DNA of 6,995 bases from a virus (taxonomy: Duplodnaviria > Heunggongvirae > Uroviricota > Caudoviricetes): IMG/VR virus record IMGVR_UViG_2675903654_000024, positions 1 through 6,995 of that record; one strand, 5' to 3'. Below, in pieces: positions 1,057-5,097 of the stretch. How positions within the stretch are numbered: the first letter of the stretch is position 1; every line of letters starts with the position of its first letter. Below the pieces are notes generated by a model, which saw only the letters and a program-made list of their open reading frames with translations, ran no database searches and was not told the origin of the DNA. The translations under genes were made by a program, and so were the position numbers.

Positions 1057-1446
1057 CTAACATTTTCTTTTTACTTTTCCAACAAAAGCTTTGGTTGAAT
1101 CCATATTTCCATAACCGGAAATGGTTTTTGACATTAAAACTGTTCCAGTAGGATGTATTACCCATGAGTCGATAACGCGTTGAGTTTCGCCATTCGCGCC
1201 GATTCCTATGATGGAGTTTTTAGACAATTCTTTGTAAGCCATGCCGCCCGCATCTGTCCCAGAATATGTGATGCTGGCATCTTCACCGCTTGTCTTAATG
1301 ATGAATGTTCCACTAAAACCATCTTCTTCCGGATGGAAATTATTTCGCTCTGAATAGCTTATTCCGCGCATATCTCCAACGACCCAGCACTCTGCTGTAG
1401 CCCCAAAAGATATGAATAAGAACATAGCAGCAAGAAATTGCTTCAC
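1057..1446 (-). CDS. Sec-signal-peptide secreted/periplasmic protein of unknown function (prophage cargo gene)
   Basis: GTG start (plus-strand cac at 1444..1446) preceded on the coding strand by a strong AAGGAGG Shine-Dalgarno (plus-strand cctcctt at 1452..1458, 5-nt spacer). N-terminus MKQFLAAMFLFISFGATA/EC has a basic n-region, hydrophobic core and A-T-A cleavage motif. There is no lipobox (Cys is not at +1). The mature ~111 aa has two Cys, one near each end. Confidence 0.7.
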   Translation of the reverse strand: MKQFLAAMFLFISFGATAECWVVGDMRGISYSERNNFHPEEDGFSGTFIIKTSGEDASITYSGTDAGGMAYKELSKNSIIGIGANGETQRVIDSWVIHPTGTVLMSKTISGYGNMDSTKAFVGKVKRKC

Positions 1447-1814: not shown

Positions 1815-2264
1815 ATGTTTATGCTCACTTGTTTTGATGTCGCCGACTACTTCTTGGCGCATTGCGATGAAGAAAGTGGCGACATTATCTCTAACCTAAA
1901 AATTCAGAAGTTGACGTATTATGCCCAAGGGTTTTCTCTGGTTCTTCTGGGTAAGCCGCTATTTAATGAGAAAATTGAAGCCTGGATGCATGGGCCAGTA
2001 GTTCCTGAATTGTATCGTAAATATAGGGACTGTGGTAACGGCGCTTTACCTGCGCCAGAAAACTTTGACGCTAAAAAATTCAGTGAAGATGAAATTGAAT
2101 TGCTGGATGAGGTGTATAAAGTTTATGGTCAGTTTTCTGCCTGGAAACTGCGCAATATGACTCACGAAGAGCAGCCATGGAAAGATGCTTACATTGAGGG
2201 TGCGGTTAGCCAAGAAATCACACTTGATTCTATGAAAGGTTTTTTCAAAACGTTAATTAACTGA
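1815..2264 (+). CDS. Panacea/DUF4065-domain protein (PanA/SocA-type antitoxin-like)
   Basis: Residues ~27-67 (NLKIQKLTYYAQGFSLVLLGKPLFNEKIEAWMHGPVVPELY) match the signature I recall for DUF4065/Panacea 'phage-associated protein' family members (KLQKLLYYAQ ... GKPLF ... EAWxxGPVxPxxY). Size (147-149 aa) fits the family. GGAGG at 1809..1813 is 1 nt from the ATG at 1815 and 7 nt from the in-frame ATG at 1821, so 1821 is the more likely true start. TTGACA hexamer at 1772..1777 upstream. Confidence 0.7.
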   Translation: MFMLTCFDVADYFLAHCDEESGDIISNLKIQKLTYYAQGFSLVLLGKPLFNEKIEAWMHGPVVPELYRKYRDCGNGALPAPENFDAKKFSEDEIELLDEVYKVYGQFSAWKLRNMTHEEQPWKDAYIEGAVSQEITLDSMKGFFKTLIN

Positions 2265-2269
2265 CGTGT

Positions 2270-2692
2270 ATGTCTAGAGTTAAGGGAAGAATAAAACAGA
2301 GGGATAAAGAGAGCTCTGCTACTGTTGGCCTCTCTATCCATCACGAATCTCATGATGTAGACAAAAGTCCGCCTGTATTTTCTCTTAGATACCTACAAAA
2401 GGGGTATTGCCTAGATTGCTGCCAAAAGCATGAAAAGGCAGCATTTGCAGATAGGCTGTTCAGGTTAAGTCAGATGTCATGGGATGAGATACGAAAATCT
2501 GATAAACACGGGCTTGGGACGGAAAAAATTGCCAGAAACGCGATAAAGGCTCCGATTCCTAAGCATGTTACTCAAGATGTGGATTTCATTGCGTTCAGAT
2601 TTTGCTCTAAGGCACCTATGGTTGGTTATAAGATAGGAGCCACTTTTTATGTCTTATGGCTCGACAGGGAGTTCAAGCTATACAAGCACTAA
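2270..2692 (+). CDS. Hypothetical basic protein; candidate toxin/effector partner co-transcribed with the Panacea-domain gene
   Basis: ATG at 2270 lies 5 nt after the upstream stop (tga 2262..2264) with no independent Shine-Dalgarno, suggesting translational coupling. 140 aa, Lys/Arg/His-rich, no hydrophobic segment, a CLDCC cysteine cluster, and a C-terminus (GYKIGATFYVLWLDREFKLYKH) loosely reminiscent of RelE/ParE-type toxin C-termini; that resemblance is weak and unverified. Followed immediately by a strong intrinsic terminator. Confidence 0.6.
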   Translation: MSRVKGRIKQRDKESSATVGLSIHHESHDVDKSPPVFSLRYLQKGYCLDCCQKHEKAAFADRLFRLSQMSWDEIRKSDKHGLGTEKIARNAIKAPIPKHVTQDVDFIAFRFCSKAPMVGYKIGATFYVLWLDREFKLYKH

Positions 2693-2693
2693 T

Positions 2694-2719
2694 AAAACCC
2701 ACCGTCAGGTGGGTTTTTT
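2694..2719. terminator. Bidirectional rho-independent terminator between the convergent Panacea operon and the zinc-ribbon gene
   Basis: Perfect 10-bp stem AAAACCCACC (2694..2703) / GGTGGGTTTT (2708..2717), 4-nt loop GTCA, T-run 2714..2719 on the plus strand and an A-run on the left flank (U-run for the minus-strand transcript). Lies 1 nt after the stop of 2270..2692 and 17 nt after the stop of the minus-strand gene 2736..2939. Confidence 0.75.
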
Positions 2720-2735
2720 GTTGGAGATAAAATGG

Positions 2736-2939
2736 TTAACCAAATCGATCCTTAAAGCGTCTATCGCTGTTGCGTCTCTCCATTTTACTGTTGCAGTACG
2801 GACAAAGATGCTGTTTCTTTCCATCGATAGTCCATGTGAAGTACTTTTTCTTAAATCCAGCACCACAGATATCGCAACTTCTTGGTTTAAACATGCTGGC
2901 TATGAAGACAAGAACAACAAATCCTATGATCCATTCCAT
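2736..2939 (-). CDS. Small membrane-anchored zinc-ribbon protein (N-terminal transmembrane helix plus CxxC-N20-CxxC)
   Basis: 67 aa. N-terminal hydrophobic segment MEWIIGFVVLVFIASMF, then CDIC ... CPYC with about 20 residues between the Cys pairs (zinc-ribbon pattern), and a basic C-terminal tail. Weak AGGT ribosome-binding site upstream on the minus strand. The two overlapping plus-strand ORFs lack these protein-like features. Confidence 0.6.
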   Translation of the reverse strand: MEWIIGFVVLVFIASMFKPRSCDICGAGFKKKYFTWTIDGKKQHLCPYCNSKMERRNSDRRFKDRFG

Positions 2940-3080
2940 ATCATGTACCTGTTTTAACTTTATTTTTTGTTTTTTAGGGATTAATCAGAAACTTTATCTT
3001 GCGATTAAGCAAAGCTACTAGCTAACAAAAGAGTGCGTATACAATCAATCGTTTCACATCAACCTCAACAAGGAGAAATC

Positions 3081-3266
3081 ATGACCATAGAAGAACGCCT
3101 GAACAACATTGAGTTGAACCAAACCCTGCTTGACCAGCGACTTTCAGATCTTGAGCTTAAAGATCTTGATGCGCAAATATCAGAAGCAGAAGCCAAGCTC
3201 TCCAGCCTAAACCACCGCAAGAAGCAAATCCGCAACAGAATTACTCAGGGACGCGGAAGCTGTTGA
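3081..3266 (+). CDS. Small coiled-coil protein, hypothetical
   Basis: ATG at 3081 is preceded by AAGGAG (3070..3075) at 5-nt spacing. The listed ORF start at 3033 is a GTG without a good ribosome-binding site, so I take 3081 as the start (61 aa). Sequence is Glu/Leu/Lys/Asn-rich (IEERLNNIELNQTLLDQRLSDLELKDLDAQISEAEAKL), consistent with a coiled coil. Its 3' end overlaps the convergent gene 3241..3450 by 26 bp. Confidence 0.5.
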   Translation: MTIEERLNNIELNQTLLDQRLSDLELKDLDAQISEAEAKLSSLNHRKKQIRNRITQGRGSC

Positions 3267-3450
3267 GGTGGGATGCTAGGTCTCTATCGTTAAAATCAAG
3301 GCTGCTAATCATTTCATTGTAAATGGCGTTTTTATCTTCCATTGGCAGTCTTGAGTAAACCAGACACAGAGCATATTTCAGGGAGTTTAGCTCTTTCTCT
3401 AGCTCTTCCTTGCTTGACGTTTTTGACTTAATAAACTGTTTTTTATTCAT
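3241..3450 (-). CDS. Hypothetical 69-aa protein translationally coupled to the end of mnt
   Basis: Its start codon overlaps the mnt stop in an ATGA arrangement (plus-strand tcat at 3447..3450), the classic sign of co-transcription and translational coupling with the upstream Mnt-like gene. No recognisable domain. Confidence 0.55.
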   Translation of the reverse strand: MNKKQFIKSKTSSKEELEKELNSLKYALCLVYSRLPMEDKNAIYNEMISSLDFNDRDLASHLNSFRVPE

Positions 3451-3695
3451 TTTGCATCCTTACCATACATGGTTTTCAGTGTTTCAAGCAGCGCCTCTTT
3501 GAATTTGTCAGCTTCTTGCTGAGCAAATGACTCAACTGACTTTGGCGACCTATCTTCATCAATCGCGGCTTGCAAAATCATGACGATCTCGGAGTTAACA
3601 GAGCGACCATTTTTTGATGCTCTGACAGCAAGAGCCTCGCGCAAAGATTCAGGGATTCTTACCGTAGTTGGAGAAATTGACACACCCTTTGCCAT
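3447..3695 (-). CDS. mnt: Mnt-like ribbon-helix-helix repressor (immI maintenance-of-lysogeny repressor)
   Basis: 82 aa. The N-terminal segment VRIPESLREALAVRASKNGRSVNSEIVMILQAAI aligns with the P22 Mnt motif as I recall it (FRMPMEVREKLKFRAEANGRSMNSELLQIVQDAL). Divergent from an Arc-like gene, as in P22 immI. AGGTG Shine-Dalgarno upstream on the minus strand. Confidence 0.85.
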   Translation of the reverse strand: MAKGVSISPTTVRIPESLREALAVRASKNGRSVNSEIVMILQAAIDEDRSPKSVESFAQQEADKFKEALLETLKTMYGKDAK

Positions 3696-3809
3696 AGCAC
3701 ACCTTTGGTATTCAATTTGATATCAAAGTGTATGCAAAAGAAATTTGACTAGATATACTCACTTTGCTATCTTTTGTATTCGAAAAGAGTCGCTTGTGCG
3801 GAGGGTAAC
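3696..3809. promoter_or_regulatory. Divergent immI control region (candidate Pant, Pmnt and Arc/Mnt operators)
   Basis: 114-bp gap between divergent mnt and arc. Plus strand: TTGACT (3745..3750), 17 bp, TATCTT (3768..3773) as candidate Pant, about 35 nt upstream of arc. Inverted repeat AGATA (3751..3755) / TATCT (3768..3772) sits inside that spacer, where the Arc operator lies in P22. Perfect 12-bp palindrome TTTGATATCAAA at 3716..3727, 21 bp upstream of the mnt start. Operator assignments are by analogy to P22 only. Confidence 0.55.
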
Positions 3810-3962
3810 ATGGAGAAAGAAATAAGTAAGATTTTGGTAAGGATGCCGCAGTCGTTAAAGGACGCTATCGGTAGCAGGGCAAAGGAAGAATGCCGGTCGT
3901 TTAACTCGGAAGTGATTAAGCGGTTGATAGACAGCCTGAAGAGAGAGGGGATAACGGTGTGA
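3810..3962 (+). CDS. arc: Arc-like ribbon-helix-helix repressor
   Basis: The listed ORF starts at 3774, but the in-frame ATG at 3810 is preceded by GGAGGG (3800..3805), giving 50 aa. The sequence KILVRMPQSLKDAIGSRAKEECRSFNSEVIKRLIDSLKREG aligns with P22 Arc as I recall it (FNLRWPREVLDLVRKVAEENGRSVNSEIYQRVMESFKKEG). Divergent from mnt, upstream of ant. Confidence 0.85.
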   Translation: MEKEISKILVRMPQSLKDAIGSRAKEECRSFNSEVIKRLIDSLKREGITV

Positions 3963-4114
3963 TTCGCTTGGATGCAGTAGTCAAAGAGATTGCGATTACC
4001 ATTTTAAGACCAAATTTTGTTCATGGCGAATCATTTGGCACGAACGAAAAATTGAGAAGAGAAAGAGTATTCAGTGGCAAGCGCACATTTTCAGAAGTGA
4101 TGCTTGATGCGGCA

Positions 4115-4194
4115 AAGAAATCAAAACAGTGAAGCCCCAACTGCGGTAACAGTCAGGGCTTCGGTTGTCGGTAAATTCGTGGAGAAAAACCAAC
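4115..4194 (-). ncRNA. Candidate sar-like antisense RNA covering the ant ribosome-binding site (approximate ends)
   Basis: Minus-strand extended -10 (TGcTATACT; plus-strand AGTATA at 4201..4206 with gca at 4207..4209) would start transcription near 4193, running leftward across the ant Shine-Dalgarno (GGAGA 4181..4185). The hairpin at 4131..4162 forms a fully paired 13-bp stem (two G-U pairs, loop UUACCG) only in the minus-strand RNA, followed by U-rich ACUGUUUUGAUUUCUUU; the plus-strand version has two C-A mismatches. P22 has a ~69-nt sar RNA with this role. Ends are inferred, not measured. Confidence 0.4.
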
Positions 4195-5097
4195 ATGAAT
4201 AGTATAGCAATTTTAGAAGCAGTGAACACCTCTTACGTACCATTCAACGGTCAGCAAATTATCACCGCCATGGCTGCCGGAGTTGCATATGTTGCGATGA
4301 AGCCAATCGTTGAAAACCTTGGAATGAGCTGGTCAACGCAGCAAACAAAACTCATGAAGCAGATTAGCAAATTCAACTGTGTTCATATGAACATGGTTGC
4401 CGCTGATGGGAAGCTTCGTAAGCTACTCTGCCTTCCTTTGAAGAAGTTAAATGGATGGCTGTTCAGCATCAACCCCGAGAAAGTTCGAGCTGACATCCGC
4501 GATAAACTGATTCAGTACCAGGAAGAATGCTTTACTGTACTGCATGACTACTGGACAAAGGGAAAGGCAGAAAATGCACGTAAGAAAACATCTGTTGATG
4601 ACAGGACTCCGCTTCGTGATGCTGTAAATATGCTAGTCAGCAAAAAGCATCTAATGTACCCAGAAGCTTATGCAATGATTCATCAGCGTTTCAATGTGGA
4701 AAGTATTGAAGAGCTTGATGCATCTCAGATACCGCAAGCCGTAGAGTACATCCACAGGGTAGTGCTTGAAGGTGAGTTCATCGGCAAACAAGAGAAGAAG
4801 CCCAACGGGCTTTCCGCAAAAGAAACAGACATCCTTGTATGGCTGTGGGATTATGCCAACCGCTCACAGGCATTATTCCGCGAACTGTATCCGGCGCTGA
4901 AACAAATTCAATCGAACTATTCCGGCAGATGTCATGACTGCGGTTATGAGTTCTCCCGTATTATCGATATAGCGAGAGACGTTTTAATCAATCACACACT
5001 AGATGTTGATATTAATGAGCCAGACGGACCAACGAATCGTTCCGCATGGATGAGACTTAAGAATAAAGAATTACCTCCTTCAGTACATAACTACTGA
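4195..5097 (+). CDS. ant: Antirepressor Ant (P22 Ant-like)
   Basis: The listed ORF begins at a TTG (4165), but the in-frame ATG at 4195 follows GGAGA (4181..4185) and gives exactly 300 aa, the length of P22 Ant. It is directly downstream of arc and upstream of the tailspike gene, as in P22 immI. Identity is by synteny and length; my recall of the P22 Ant sequence itself is partial. Confidence 0.8.

What the first reader, a model, noticed from the sequence alone, without database searches (positions are those of the whole stretch)
2736..2939. Membrane-anchored zinc-ribbon mini-protein convergent with the Panacea operon
A 67-aa protein with a single N-terminal transmembrane helix and a CxxC-N20-CxxC zinc ribbon is an unusual small architecture. 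It shares the bidirectional terminator with the Panacea pair and lies in the cargo island. Small membrane proteins at this kind of locus are sometimes superinfection-exclusion or regulatory factors, but I cannot assign a family.
Basis: partly seen in the sequence, partly recalled or inferred. Interest (0 to 1): 0.5.

Follow-up and report, generated by a model that had tools for sequence, protein, structure and literature searches.

The report
Membrane-anchored zinc-finger protein behind mnt
This is a real but almost never annotated 67-residue prophage gene for an inner-membrane-anchored zinc-finger protein; it travels with the phage maintenance repressor mnt rather than with the neighbouring Panacea toxin-antitoxin pair, and its function is untested, though phage exclusion or defence is the best guess.

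Summary
The ORF at 2736-2939 (-) is a genuine gene. It is intact in 58 of 58 unique full-length homologs from more than 15 genera. Median dN/dS is 0.08, and the rival plus-strand ORFs are not conserved.

The protein has an N-terminal membrane helix and a strongly basic cytoplasmic C4 zinc finger. AlphaFold2 (pLDDT 88.5) models the finger as treble-clef-like rather than a classical zinc ribbon. No Pfam, PHROG, NCBIfam, PADLOC or PDB family captures it.

The link to the Panacea pair is only positional. In 71 distinct contexts, a Panacea gene is nearby in 7. A Mnt-type repressor gene lies 45 nt or less upstream on the same strand in 29, and further upstream in 13. Another 26 copies are solitary chromosomal genes. 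Among complete E. coli genomes, 32 carry the gene, 34 carry this Panacea pair and only 8 carry both.

The gene is therefore swappable cargo of the mnt operon inside the known "ant moron" of P22-like phages, so it is probably expressed in lysogens.

My best guess, untested, is a stand-alone exclusion or defence factor acting at the inner face of the membrane. It is a moderately interesting new small-protein family with no demonstrated mechanism.

The parts
2736..2939 (-). Coding sequence of the 67-aa membrane-anchored zinc-finger mini-protein (ATG at 2939-2937, TAA at 2738-2736)
   Evidence: ORF list and sequence. Intact in 58 of 58 unique homologs, with median dN/dS 0.083.
2889..2936 (-). Codons 2-17: the N-terminal transmembrane anchor (EWIIGFVVLVFIASMF)
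   Evidence: Mean hydropathy is 2.66 and AlphaFold2 models helix 2-16. The sequence varies but is always hydrophobic across 85 relatives. In P0091, P0092, P0118 and P0127 the same segment follows a signal peptide and a periplasmic domain, so it spans the membrane with the finger on the cytoplasmic side.
2742..2876 (-). Codons 22-66: the cytoplasmic C4 zinc finger (CxxC knuckle, beta-hairpin 34-45, CPxC capping helix 47-66), with the conserved FKxRFG tail at its C-terminal end
2947..2950 (-). Weak Shine-Dalgarno element (AGGT), 8 nt upstream of the ATG
   Evidence: Read from the sequence. Most homologs have GGAG or AGGAG at the same distance.
2694..2722 (.). Hairpin AAAACCCACC-GTCA-GGTGGGTTTT plus a T-run. 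It is a bidirectional terminator-like element between the two convergent stop codons, and a mosaic junction.
   Evidence: Folds on both strands, -18.6 and -15.4 kcal/mol. Near-identical hairpins follow the mini-gene in loci that lack Panacea (L023, L036, L065). The same hairpin follows the Panacea pair where the mini-gene is absent.
3447..3695 (-). mnt, the ribbon-helix-helix maintenance repressor and first gene of the leftward operon
   Evidence: Pfam Arc domain 9.6e-11. It is 36% identical to P22 Mnt over the full length.
3241..3450 (-). orf69 (phrog_16466), the second gene of the leftward operon. Its start overlaps the mnt stop codon.
   Evidence: PGAP annotates it as a hypothetical protein.
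3081..3266 (+). Gene for a 61-aa coiled-coil protein (phrog_7586). It lies antisense between orf69 and the mini-gene and is found only in the E. coli arrangement.
   Evidence: PHROG 7.2e-44. Annotated by PGAP. Present in all E. coli-type loci and absent from the other classes.
3696..3773 (.). Divergent mnt/arc control region. It holds a P_ant-like promoter at 3745-3773 on the plus strand, and P_mnt is expected on the minus strand.
   Evidence: Promoter scan. Alignment with the annotated P22 P_ant/P_mnt region.
3774..5097 (+). Rightward immI genes: arc (3774-3962), sar antisense RNA (4128-4194, minus strand) and ant (4165-5097)
   Evidence: Pfam Arc 9.6e-12 and P22_AR_N/C 3e-45 and 7e-25. Rfam sar RNA 87 bits.
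1815..2692 (+). The Panacea (SocA-like) antitoxin gene and its 140-aa partner. This is a neighbouring but independent module.
   Evidence: Pfam SocA_Panacea 2.2e-24 and phrog_8366 1.3e-75. It assorts independently of the mini-gene.

Best explanation
The ORF encodes a genuine small bitopic inner-membrane protein. A 15-17-residue N-terminal helix anchors it, with the N-terminus outside. The rest is a compact, very basic C4 zinc finger (mean net charge about +10) of treble-clef type. It ends in a long helix and a conserved FKxRFG tail, and it sits directly on the cytoplasmic face of the membrane.

The gene is not part of the Panacea toxin-antitoxin module. It is exchangeable cargo in the slot behind the maintenance-repressor gene mnt, within the immI / 'ant moron' region of temperate phages. 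There it is co-transcribed leftward from P_mnt and ends at the hairpin at 2694-2722, so it should be made in the lysogen.

It also persists as a solitary chromosomal gene under purifying selection, so it needs no phage-encoded partner.

The most likely role (inferred, not shown) is that of a stand-alone lysogenic-conversion factor that protects the lysogen against incoming phage. On this view the membrane-tethered basic finger binds an anionic ligand at the membrane surface, such as entering nucleic acid, an ejection or entry component, or acidic lipid. It occupies the same part of the phage genome as P22 SieA, and its architecture is a miniature of the membrane-anchored nucleic-acid-binding proteins AbiP and PdpSau.

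Shown: it is a real gene; the architecture; the cytoplasmic orientation; the linkage to mnt; independence from Panacea; the existence of solitary copies.

Inferred: expression in the lysogen; zinc binding; the ligand; the anti-phage role.
For: Real gene:
- The frame is open in 58 of 58 unique homologs. Median dN/dS is 0.083. Synonymous sites are saturated against distant homologs while dN is 0.13-0.40. Entropy at codon position 3 far exceeds positions 1 and 2.
- Most homologs have a GGAG-type ribosome-binding site.

Architecture and topology:
- AlphaFold2 gives pLDDT 88.5.
- Relatives with a signal peptide, a periplasmic domain, then the TM helix and the finger fix the finger in the cytoplasm.

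Linkage to mnt:
- In 29 of 68 assessable distinct contexts, a Mnt-type RHH gene ends 45 nt or less upstream on the same strand, sometimes with a 1-nt overlap. In 13 more it lies further upstream on the same strand.
- The window's Mnt is a full-length ortholog of P22 Mnt.
- P22's annotated unit is P_mnt, then mnt, then orf59a, then a terminator. PA45B has a ClpP-like gene in the same slot, which supports the idea of a cargo slot.

Why lysogen expression is expected:
- The epsilon34 genome paper treats the P22 mnt homologue as a maintenance repressor expected to be expressed from the prophage (PMC2629481).
- SieA in the same region is a prophage-expressed inner-membrane exclusion protein (PMC10883804).

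No partner is needed:
- 26 copies are solitary and sit among housekeeping or accessory genes.
- Distant members also have no conserved neighbour.

Hints at a nucleic-acid ligand or a defence role:
- One relative has a HIRAN domain fused after the finger.
- Some solitary copies lie next to SymE, HigB-like, AriA-like or Leo genes.
- AbiP and PdpSau provide a precedent for the architecture (PMC10127798).
Against: - No functional data exist for any member of the family.
- PADLOC has no model that matches the protein.
- Enrichment of defence genes near solitary copies is weak and has no background control. Most neighbours are housekeeping genes.
- In the window the gene lies 302 nt downstream of orf69, with an antisense gene in between. 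No consensus sigma-70 promoter was found on its strand. Co-transcription with mnt is therefore an extrapolation from the tightly coupled arrangements in other phages.
- The gene occurs in phages of different morphotypes and on chromosomes, so a SieA-like interaction specific to P22 ejection proteins is unlikely.
Confidence: 0.4

Rival explanations
1. It is a small-protein modulator of a host machine. Like MgrB, AcrZ, MgtS or lambda CIII, the membrane-tethered finger would bind and tune a ubiquitous host membrane or membrane-associated protein, such as a protease, translocon, kinase or transporter. This would alter lysogen physiology rather than block phages.
For: The gene works without any conserved gene partner. 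Solitary copies sit among housekeeping genes. The cytoplasmic domain is highly conserved, including its aromatic residues and the C-terminal FKxRFG motif, which suggests a specific protein interface. The same module is fused to many different periplasmic domains, as if it were a generic docking or signalling unit.
Against: No candidate target has been identified. The TM helix, which is the usual interaction surface of such regulators, is poorly conserved. Placement in a prophage immunity operon is more typical of exclusion or defence cargo.
Confidence: 0.2
2. It is an accessory component of the immI switch. The protein would tether or sequester Ant, Arc or Mnt at the membrane, or otherwise tune the antirepressor circuit, which would explain why it sits right behind mnt.
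Against: 26 solitary copies under purifying selection have no mnt, arc or ant nearby. The adjacent antirepressors belong to different families (P22 Ant, Rha, KilA), and the Mnt C-terminal regions differ, yet the mini-protein stays 65-70% identical. Other phages fill the same slot with unrelated genes: orf59a in P22 and a ClpP-like gene in PA45B.
Confidence: 0.1
3. It is a membrane-damaging toxin. This could be a type I-like small hydrophobic toxin, or the toxin of a type II pair in which the RHH protein Mnt acts as antitoxin.
For: It is a small protein with a single N-terminal TM helix. An RHH gene immediately upstream with overlapping stop and start codons resembles a type II toxin-antitoxin operon. 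Several solitary copies lie beside SymE or HigB-like toxin genes.
Against: The 26 solitary copies have no RHH partner. Rfam finds no antisense RNA over the gene; the only antisense RNA found is sar, over arc-ant. Conservation is concentrated in the soluble zinc finger and not in the TM helix. The upstream RHH genes are true Mnt analogues, lying divergent to arc/ant.
Confidence: 0.07
4. It is a third component or regulator of the Panacea toxin-antitoxin module. This is the association implied by the finding's title.
For: In the window and some E. coli prophages, the gene is convergent with the pair and shares the hairpin at 2694-2722.
Against: A Panacea gene lies within 3.5 kb in only 7 of 71 distinct contexts. 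In complete E. coli genomes the counts are 32 carriers against 34, with only 8 shared. Phages E212 and EC.P3 and prophage PA45B keep the pair without the gene. The hairpin also accompanies the gene in loci with no Panacea.
Confidence: 0.03
5. It is not a gene, and the overlapping plus-strand ORF is the real one. That ORF is at 2649-2957 (102 aa), and PGAP annotated its equivalent in UMNK88.
For: PGAP annotated the plus-strand ORF in UMNK88 and annotated nothing in 30 of 32 genomes.
Against: The plus-strand frame is interrupted in 37 of 58 homologs, and the other plus-strand ORF (2770-3021) in 57 of 58. The minus-strand frame is open in all 58, with dN/dS 0.08. Minus-strand protein homologs at 47-96% identity exist in about 100 clusters.
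Confidence: 0.02

Closest known systems
P22 SieA (superinfection exclusion A)
   Same: It is encoded in the same genomic region, the 'ant moron' between genes 16 and 9, on the same strand as mnt. [quoted passage not shown]
   Different: SieA is about 162 aa with three or four TM helices and no zinc site. It has its own promoter, is restricted to P22-like prophages and targets P22-type ejection proteins. The mini-protein has one TM helix and a zinc finger and shows no sequence similarity to SieA. It occurs in several phage types and on chromosomes.
Membrane-anchored nucleic-acid-binding abortive-infection proteins AbiP (Lactococcus) and PdpSau (S. aureus prophages)
   Same: Each has an N-terminal single TM anchor followed by a positively charged cytoplasmic domain. 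Each is a single-gene system that confers phage resistance, and PdpSau is prophage-borne (PMC10127798).
   Different: They are about 280 aa (PdpSau is 278) and have an OB-fold-like domain rather than a 45-residue zinc finger. There is no homology. Nucleic-acid binding by the mini-protein is untested.
Treble-clef zinc fingers (for example Pfam PF23550 zf_Tbcl_Rhp7, HNH-type beta-beta-alpha fingers, TFIIH p44, L24e, CsfB/Gin)
   Different: All matches are weak, with Z no higher than 4.4, and most are below Pfam thresholds. The window protein itself matches none of them. The HNH catalytic residues are not conserved: H44 is kept in only 60 of 85 members. None of these relatives is membrane-anchored.
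P22 orf59a and the other genes found directly behind mnt
   Same: They occupy the same slot: downstream of mnt, before the terminator, within the mnt transcription unit.
   Different: The sequences are unrelated. orf59a is a soluble, glycine- and lysine-rich 59-aa protein of unknown function. PA45B carries a ClpP-like protease gene in this slot.

Membership tests
Classical zinc ribbon (Pfam Zn_ribbon_8, DZR_2 and similar) | Four zinc ligands arranged as CxxC...CxxC | tested here: met
   C22, C25, C46 and C49. Three are invariant and C25 is kept in 84 of 85 relatives.
Classical zinc ribbon (Pfam Zn_ribbon_8, DZR_2 and similar) | Both knuckles come from beta-hairpins of a three-stranded sheet, and the protein scores above the family threshold | tested here: not met
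   The best Pfam score is 16.9 bits against a 34.4-bit cut-off. In the AlphaFold2 model the second CPxC caps helix 47-66.
Treble-clef zinc finger fold group | An N-terminal zinc knuckle, a beta-hairpin, and the last two ligands in the first turn of a C-terminal helix | tested here: met
   [not shown]
HNH / beta-beta-alpha-Me nuclease | An invariant catalytic His at the end of strand 1 and conserved metal-binding Asn or His residues | tested here: not met
   Position 39 varies (E, D, G or N). H44 is kept in only 60 of 85 members. HNH_5 scores 13.3 bits against a 27.5-bit cut-off.
SieA superinfection-exclusion family | About 160 aa, three or four TM helices, and the cytoplasmic motif FxRYPxEAxxFNK | tested here: not met
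   The protein has 67 aa and one TM helix, and the motif is absent from its sequence.
SieA superinfection-exclusion family | Located between the gene 16 and gene 9 homologs of a P22-like prophage, and expressed from the prophage | tested here: inconclusive
   The location criterion is met in the window. Expression was not tested. Many family members lie outside P22-like prophages.
Panacea (PanA-PanT) toxin-antitoxin module, as an extra component | Consistent co-occurrence with the Panacea pair | tested here: not met
   Panacea is nearby in 7 of 71 contexts. Among E. coli genomes, 8 carry both, against 32 and 34 carriers of each. The pair occurs without the gene in E212, EC.P3 and PA45B.
mnt (immI) operon cargo | Same strand as, and immediately downstream of, a Mnt-type RHH repressor gene that is divergent from arc/ant | tested here: met
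   29 contexts have a gap of 45 nt or less, and 13 more have mnt further upstream on the same strand. The window order is mnt, orf69, then the mini-gene.
mnt (immI) operon cargo | Co-transcription from P_mnt in the lysogen | not testable with these tools
   This is inferred from P22's annotated unit P_mnt, mnt, orf59a, terminator and from the operon-type spacing in relatives. In the window there is a 302-nt gap containing an antisense gene, and no consensus promoter was found.
Type II toxin with an RHH antitoxin | Obligate pairing with the upstream antitoxin gene | tested here: not met
   26 solitary copies have no RHH gene within 3.5 kb upstream.
Type I toxin | A cis-encoded antisense RNA that controls a small hydrophobic toxin | tested here: inconclusive
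   No Rfam family overlaps the gene; the only match is sroH, which merely matches the terminator hairpin at 18 bits. A novel antisense RNA cannot be excluded. Toxicity was not tested.
Known anti-phage defence systems (PADLOC-DB v2) | A match to a model of a defence protein | tested here: not met
   The protein matches no family at E no higher than 0.1.

The most novel reading that the evidence does not exclude
The 67-aa protein would be the minimal, free-standing form of a widespread and undescribed cytoplasmic module: a membrane-proximal treble-clef zinc finger. About 360 clusters at 50% identity carry it, many fused to periplasmic sensor-like domains and one to a HIRAN DNA-end-binding domain. 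In temperate phages this module would have been recruited as a single-gene defence expressed in the lysogen. It would capture entering phage nucleic acid, or an entry component, at the inner face of the membrane. That would make it a new and exceptionally small class of superinfection-exclusion or abortive-infection protein, carried in the mnt operon.
Probability: 0.2. Interest if true: 0.65.

Novelty: new variant of a known kind. Interest (0 to 1): 0.42.

Why it matters
Annotation pipelines systematically miss small membrane proteins. Here PGAP annotates nothing in 30 of 32 complete E. coli genomes, and in at least one (UMNK88) it annotates the wrong strand.

This work does three things:
- It corrects that annotation.
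- It defines a conserved family of about 100 clusters at 90% identity in Enterobacterales and their temperate phages, and a wider superfamily of membrane proteins that carry the same module.
- It identifies the position behind mnt as a swappable cargo slot that is probably expressed in lysogens.

If the protein excludes phages, it would be one of the smallest single-gene defences known and would be easy to test. If it instead tunes a host machine, it would be a new prophage-borne small-protein regulator. Either way, it separates the gene from the Panacea toxin-antitoxin pair, which matters for anyone dissecting that module.

Tried and rejected
- **HNH nuclease.** The 'LCPxCNxxK' stretch resembles the HNH motif, but the catalytic positions are not conserved.
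- **P22 orf59a as a homolog.** It is unrelated to both the mini-protein and orf69.
- **Conserved partner gene.** I found none in the solitary Enterobacterales copies or in distant members.
- **Defence-island enrichment around solitary copies.** There were a few hits (two AriA-like hits, one LeoABC set, SymE, HigB-like), but most neighbours are housekeeping genes and I had no background control, so the result is inconclusive. The mad3 and mad8 hits are probably generic ABC-ATPase matches.
- **A promoter of its own.** The consensus scan found none on the minus strand between 2940 and 3240. The same scan also missed the obvious hairpin terminator, so its negative results carry little weight.
- **A misreading I corrected.** In one search I first took ORFs 'ending at 0' to be upstream genes. 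They are the mini-gene's own frame extended upstream.
- **Literature.** Searches found no description of this protein.

Full report
**1.

The minus-strand ORF at 2736-2939 starts with ATG and ends with TAA. It encodes the 67 aa MEWIIGFVVLVFIASMFKPRSCDICGAGFKKKYFTWTIDGKKQHLCPYCNSKMERRNSDRRFKDRFG. It has a hydrophobic N-terminus (W3-F17, mean Kyte-Doolittle hydropathy 2.66) and the spacing C22-x2-C25-x20-C46-x2-C49.

It is convergent with the Panacea gene (1815-2264; Pfam SocA_Panacea 2.2e-24) and that gene's 140-aa partner (2270-2692; phrog_8366 1.3e-75). Between the two stop codons lies the hairpin AAAACCCACC-GTCA-GGTGGGTTTT at 2694-2717. It folds stably on both strands, at -18.6 kcal/mol (z -4.3) and -15.4 kcal/mol (z -3.0).

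**2. It is a real protein-coding gene on the minus strand**

Homologs at 47-96% amino-acid identity form about 100 clusters at 90% identity. I fetched 77 further loci from genomes and viral contigs, in addition to the annotated records.

- The frame is intact at 64-73 aa in 77 sequences, 58 of them unique at the nucleotide level, from more than 15 genera of Enterobacterales and one Methylotenera MAG (metagenome-assembled genome). Only L025, L033 and L081 are decayed. L034 is a false positive, a ligase zinc finger.
- Nei-Gojobori dN/dS has a median of 0.083 over 152 unsaturated pairs. Against distant homologs, synonymous sites are saturated while dN is 0.13-0.40. Summed entropies at codon positions 1, 2 and 3 are 43.7, 26.1 and 88.4.
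- The rival plus-strand ORFs fail. The 2649-2957 frame is open in 21 of 58 unique sequences, and this is the ORF that PGAP annotated in UMNK88. The 2770-3021 frame is open in 1 of 58. The sense frame is open in 58 of 58.
- Most homologs carry a GGAG-type Shine-Dalgarno sequence. The window's own is weaker, AGGT with an 8-nt spacer.
- PGAP annotates nothing over the gene in 30 of 32 complete E. coli genomes that carry it.

**3. What the protein looks like**

AlphaFold2 on an 85-sequence alignment gives mean pLDDT 88.5. The model has helix 2-16, the CxxC knuckle at 22-25, a beta-hairpin at 34-38 and 41-45, and CPxC capping a 20-residue helix at 47-66. This is treble-clef geometry rather than a two-knuckle zinc ribbon.

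The protein is not an HNH nuclease, because H44 is kept in only 60 of 85 members and position 39 varies.

C22, C46, P47 and C49 are invariant. C25, K30, W36, G40, F62 and others are nearly so. The TM segment varies but is always hydrophobic. The mean net charge of residues 17-67 is +10, with a range of +6 to +14.

Topology follows from relatives that have a signal peptide, a periplasmic domain of about 110-200 aa, and then the same TM helix and finger (P0091, P0092, P0118, P0127). It also follows from the positive-inside rule. The finger is therefore cytoplasmic and is tethered only about four residues from the membrane.

No Pfam, PHROG, NCBIfam, PADLOC, PDB-sequence or BFVD match rises above generic zinc-finger noise.

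**4. Where it belongs in the genome**

The window is the region between the gene 16 homolog (46-1032) and the tailspike gene (from 5199) of a P22-like prophage. The literature calls this the 'ant moron' and describes it as being in rapid genetic flux (PMC2629481). It holds a complete immI region:

| Element | Coordinates | Evidence |
|---|---|---|
| mnt | 3447-3695 (-) | 36% identical to P22 Mnt over full length |
| arc | 3774-3962 (+) | Pfam Arc 9.6e-12 |
| sar RNA | 4128-4194 (-) | Rfam 87 bits |
| ant | 4165-5097 (+) | Pfam P22_AR_N/C |

The mini-gene is on the mnt strand.

Across 71 distinct contexts:

| Context | Count |
|---|---|
| Mnt-type RHH gene ending 45 nt or less upstream, same strand, usually divergent from arc/ant | 29 |
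| mnt further upstream on the same strand, with one or two small genes or remnants between | 13 |
| Solitary, no RHH gene within 3.5 kb upstream | 26 |
| Too little upstream DNA to assess | 3 |

The first class includes Klebsiella, Edwardsiella, Yersinia and Lonsdalea phages and prophages, and in some of them the stop and start codons overlap by one base. The second class is mainly the E. coli arrangement mnt, orf69, antisense phrog_7586 gene, mini-gene, which is the window's own arrangement. In L001 the whole immI-plus-mini module sits inside a lambdoid prophage between the tail genes L and K.

In P22 the annotated unit is P_mnt, mnt, orf59a, terminator, and sieA follows under its own promoter. 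orf59a is unrelated to the mini-protein. PA45B has the same Panacea pair, hairpin and immI, but a ClpP-like protease gene sits directly behind mnt instead. So the position behind mnt is a swappable cargo slot, and the mini-gene is one of its occupants.

**5. Relation to the Panacea pair**

The relation is positional only.

- A Panacea homolog lies within 3.5 kb in 7 of the 71 contexts.
- Among 5,426 complete E. coli genomes, 32 carry the mini-gene and 34 carry this Panacea pair. By comparing the two lists, only 8 carry both: UMNK88, UMNF18, K_EC180, ETEC4067, ETEC4070, ETEC4071, ETEC4085 and ET245.
- Phages E212 and EC.P3 match the pair perfectly up to about 2719 and then diverge.
- Nearly the same hairpin follows the mini-gene in loci that have no Panacea gene (L023, L036, L065).

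The hairpin is therefore a shared module boundary and a likely recombination junction. It is not evidence of joint function.

**6. Solitary copies and the wider superfamily**

The solitary copies lie between unrelated housekeeping genes: ABC transporters, dxs, MFS transporters, an aldehyde dehydrogenase and an aminotransferase. In Enterobacter, Lelliottia, Buttiauxella and Scandinavium they lie just past tRNA-Sec, next to variable accessory genes such as SymE, Gp49/HigB-like, an AAA_15 AriA-like ATPase, Hcp and one LeoABC set. This hints at hot-spot cargo, but it is not a demonstrable defence-island enrichment.

An exhaustive profile search finds 360 clusters at 50% identity. Many are larger membrane proteins with the TM-finger module at either end:
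- signal peptide, LprI-like or Sel1 domain, TM, finger;
- TM, finger, TM, periplasmic domain;
- in one case, TM, finger, HIRAN, TM.

Distant stand-alone members have no conserved neighbour. The module therefore works alone or with a ubiquitous cellular component.

**7. Most likely mechanism**

Shown: it is a real gene; it has an N-out, C-in anchor and a basic cytoplasmic C4 finger; it is cargo of the mnt operon; it is independent of Panacea; it persists alone under purifying selection.

Inferred: it is transcribed from P_mnt and so made in the lysogen. In the window this is an extrapolation, because 302 nt and an antisense gene separate it from orf69 and no consensus promoter was detected.

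Best guess, at a confidence of about 0.4: it is a stand-alone lysogenic-conversion factor that protects against incoming phage at the inner face of the membrane. It occupies the same part of the phage genome as SieA (PMC10883804). Its architecture is a miniature of the membrane-anchored, positively charged nucleic-acid-binding proteins AbiP and PdpSau (PMC10127798). The ligand is unknown and could be nucleic acid, an entry protein or acidic lipid.

Rivals, with estimated probabilities:
- a small-protein modulator of a host machine (0.2);
- an accessory part of the immI switch (0.1), disfavoured by the solitary copies and by the diversity of the adjacent antirepressor families;
- a toxin (0.07), disfavoured by the solitary copies, by the conservation pattern and by the absence of any known antisense RNA;
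- a component of the Panacea module (0.03);
- not a gene (0.02).

**8. Novelty and score**

The kind of thing is known: a small membrane protein carried as cargo in a region of the prophage whose genes are expressed in lysogens. The family and its architecture have not been described. I found no curated family and nothing in the literature.

I rate it a new variant of a known kind, with interest 0.42. It is a solid annotation correction and a cleanly testable candidate, but no mechanism has been demonstrated.

Noticed in passing
window 2270-2692 (+): The 140-aa partner of the Panacea antitoxin matches phrog_8366 at 1.3e-75. It also has weak hits to PADLOC NsnC (1.8e-7) and to NCBIfam MAG6450 (1.9e-5, below the cut-off). 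The ORF is intact but not annotated by PGAP in PA45B. In 33 of the 34 E. coli genomes that carry the pair, only the Panacea gene is listed under the match.
   Followed up: partly
window 4128-4194 (-): A sar antisense RNA (Rfam RF00262, 87 bits, E 5.8e-18) overlaps the start of ant. The immI circuit in this window is therefore complete: mnt, arc, sar and ant.
   Followed up: yes
window 3241-3266: orf69 (3241-3450, minus strand, phrog_16466) and the 61-aa coiled-coil gene (3081-3266, plus strand, phrog_7586) overlap convergently by 26 nt. The plus-strand gene lies antisense within the presumed mnt-to-mini-gene transcript, which could cause transcriptional interference.
   Followed up: no
L089 4431-4967 (E. 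coli PA45B): A ClpP-like protease subunit gene sits directly behind mnt, with overlapping stop and start codons, in the slot that the mini-gene module occupies in the window. A prophage-borne ClpP paralog in an immunity operon is itself unusual.
   Followed up: no
[not shown]
   Followed up: partly
window 2694-2722; L089 4380-4406: The hairpin is the mosaic junction. Phages E212 and EC.P3 and prophage PA45B are identical to the window up to about 2719 and diverge immediately afterwards. Similar hairpins flank the mini-gene in unrelated loci. It may be a recombination hot spot between morons.
   Followed up: partly
P0157, P0118, P0127, P0186, P0201, P0242 (superfamily members): The TM-finger module occurs fused to a HIRAN domain, to LprI-like and Sel1 periplasmic domains, and to C-terminal periplasmic domains beyond a second TM helix. 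P0242 (1,065 aa) shows 12 matching stretches and may be an unrelated repetitive zinc-finger protein.
   Followed up: partly
window 1057-1446 (-): A 129-aa phrog_2651 protein with a signal-peptide-like N-terminus (MKQFLAAMFLFISFGATA) lies immediately after the gene 16 homolog. It is another uncharacterised cargo gene of the ant moron, and it is probably secreted.
   Followed up: no
L004 5950-6258 (E. coli UMNK88, WP_158414285.1): RefSeq annotates the antisense 102-aa ORF over the mini-gene. The comparative data indicate that this is a wrong-strand call.
   Followed up: yes
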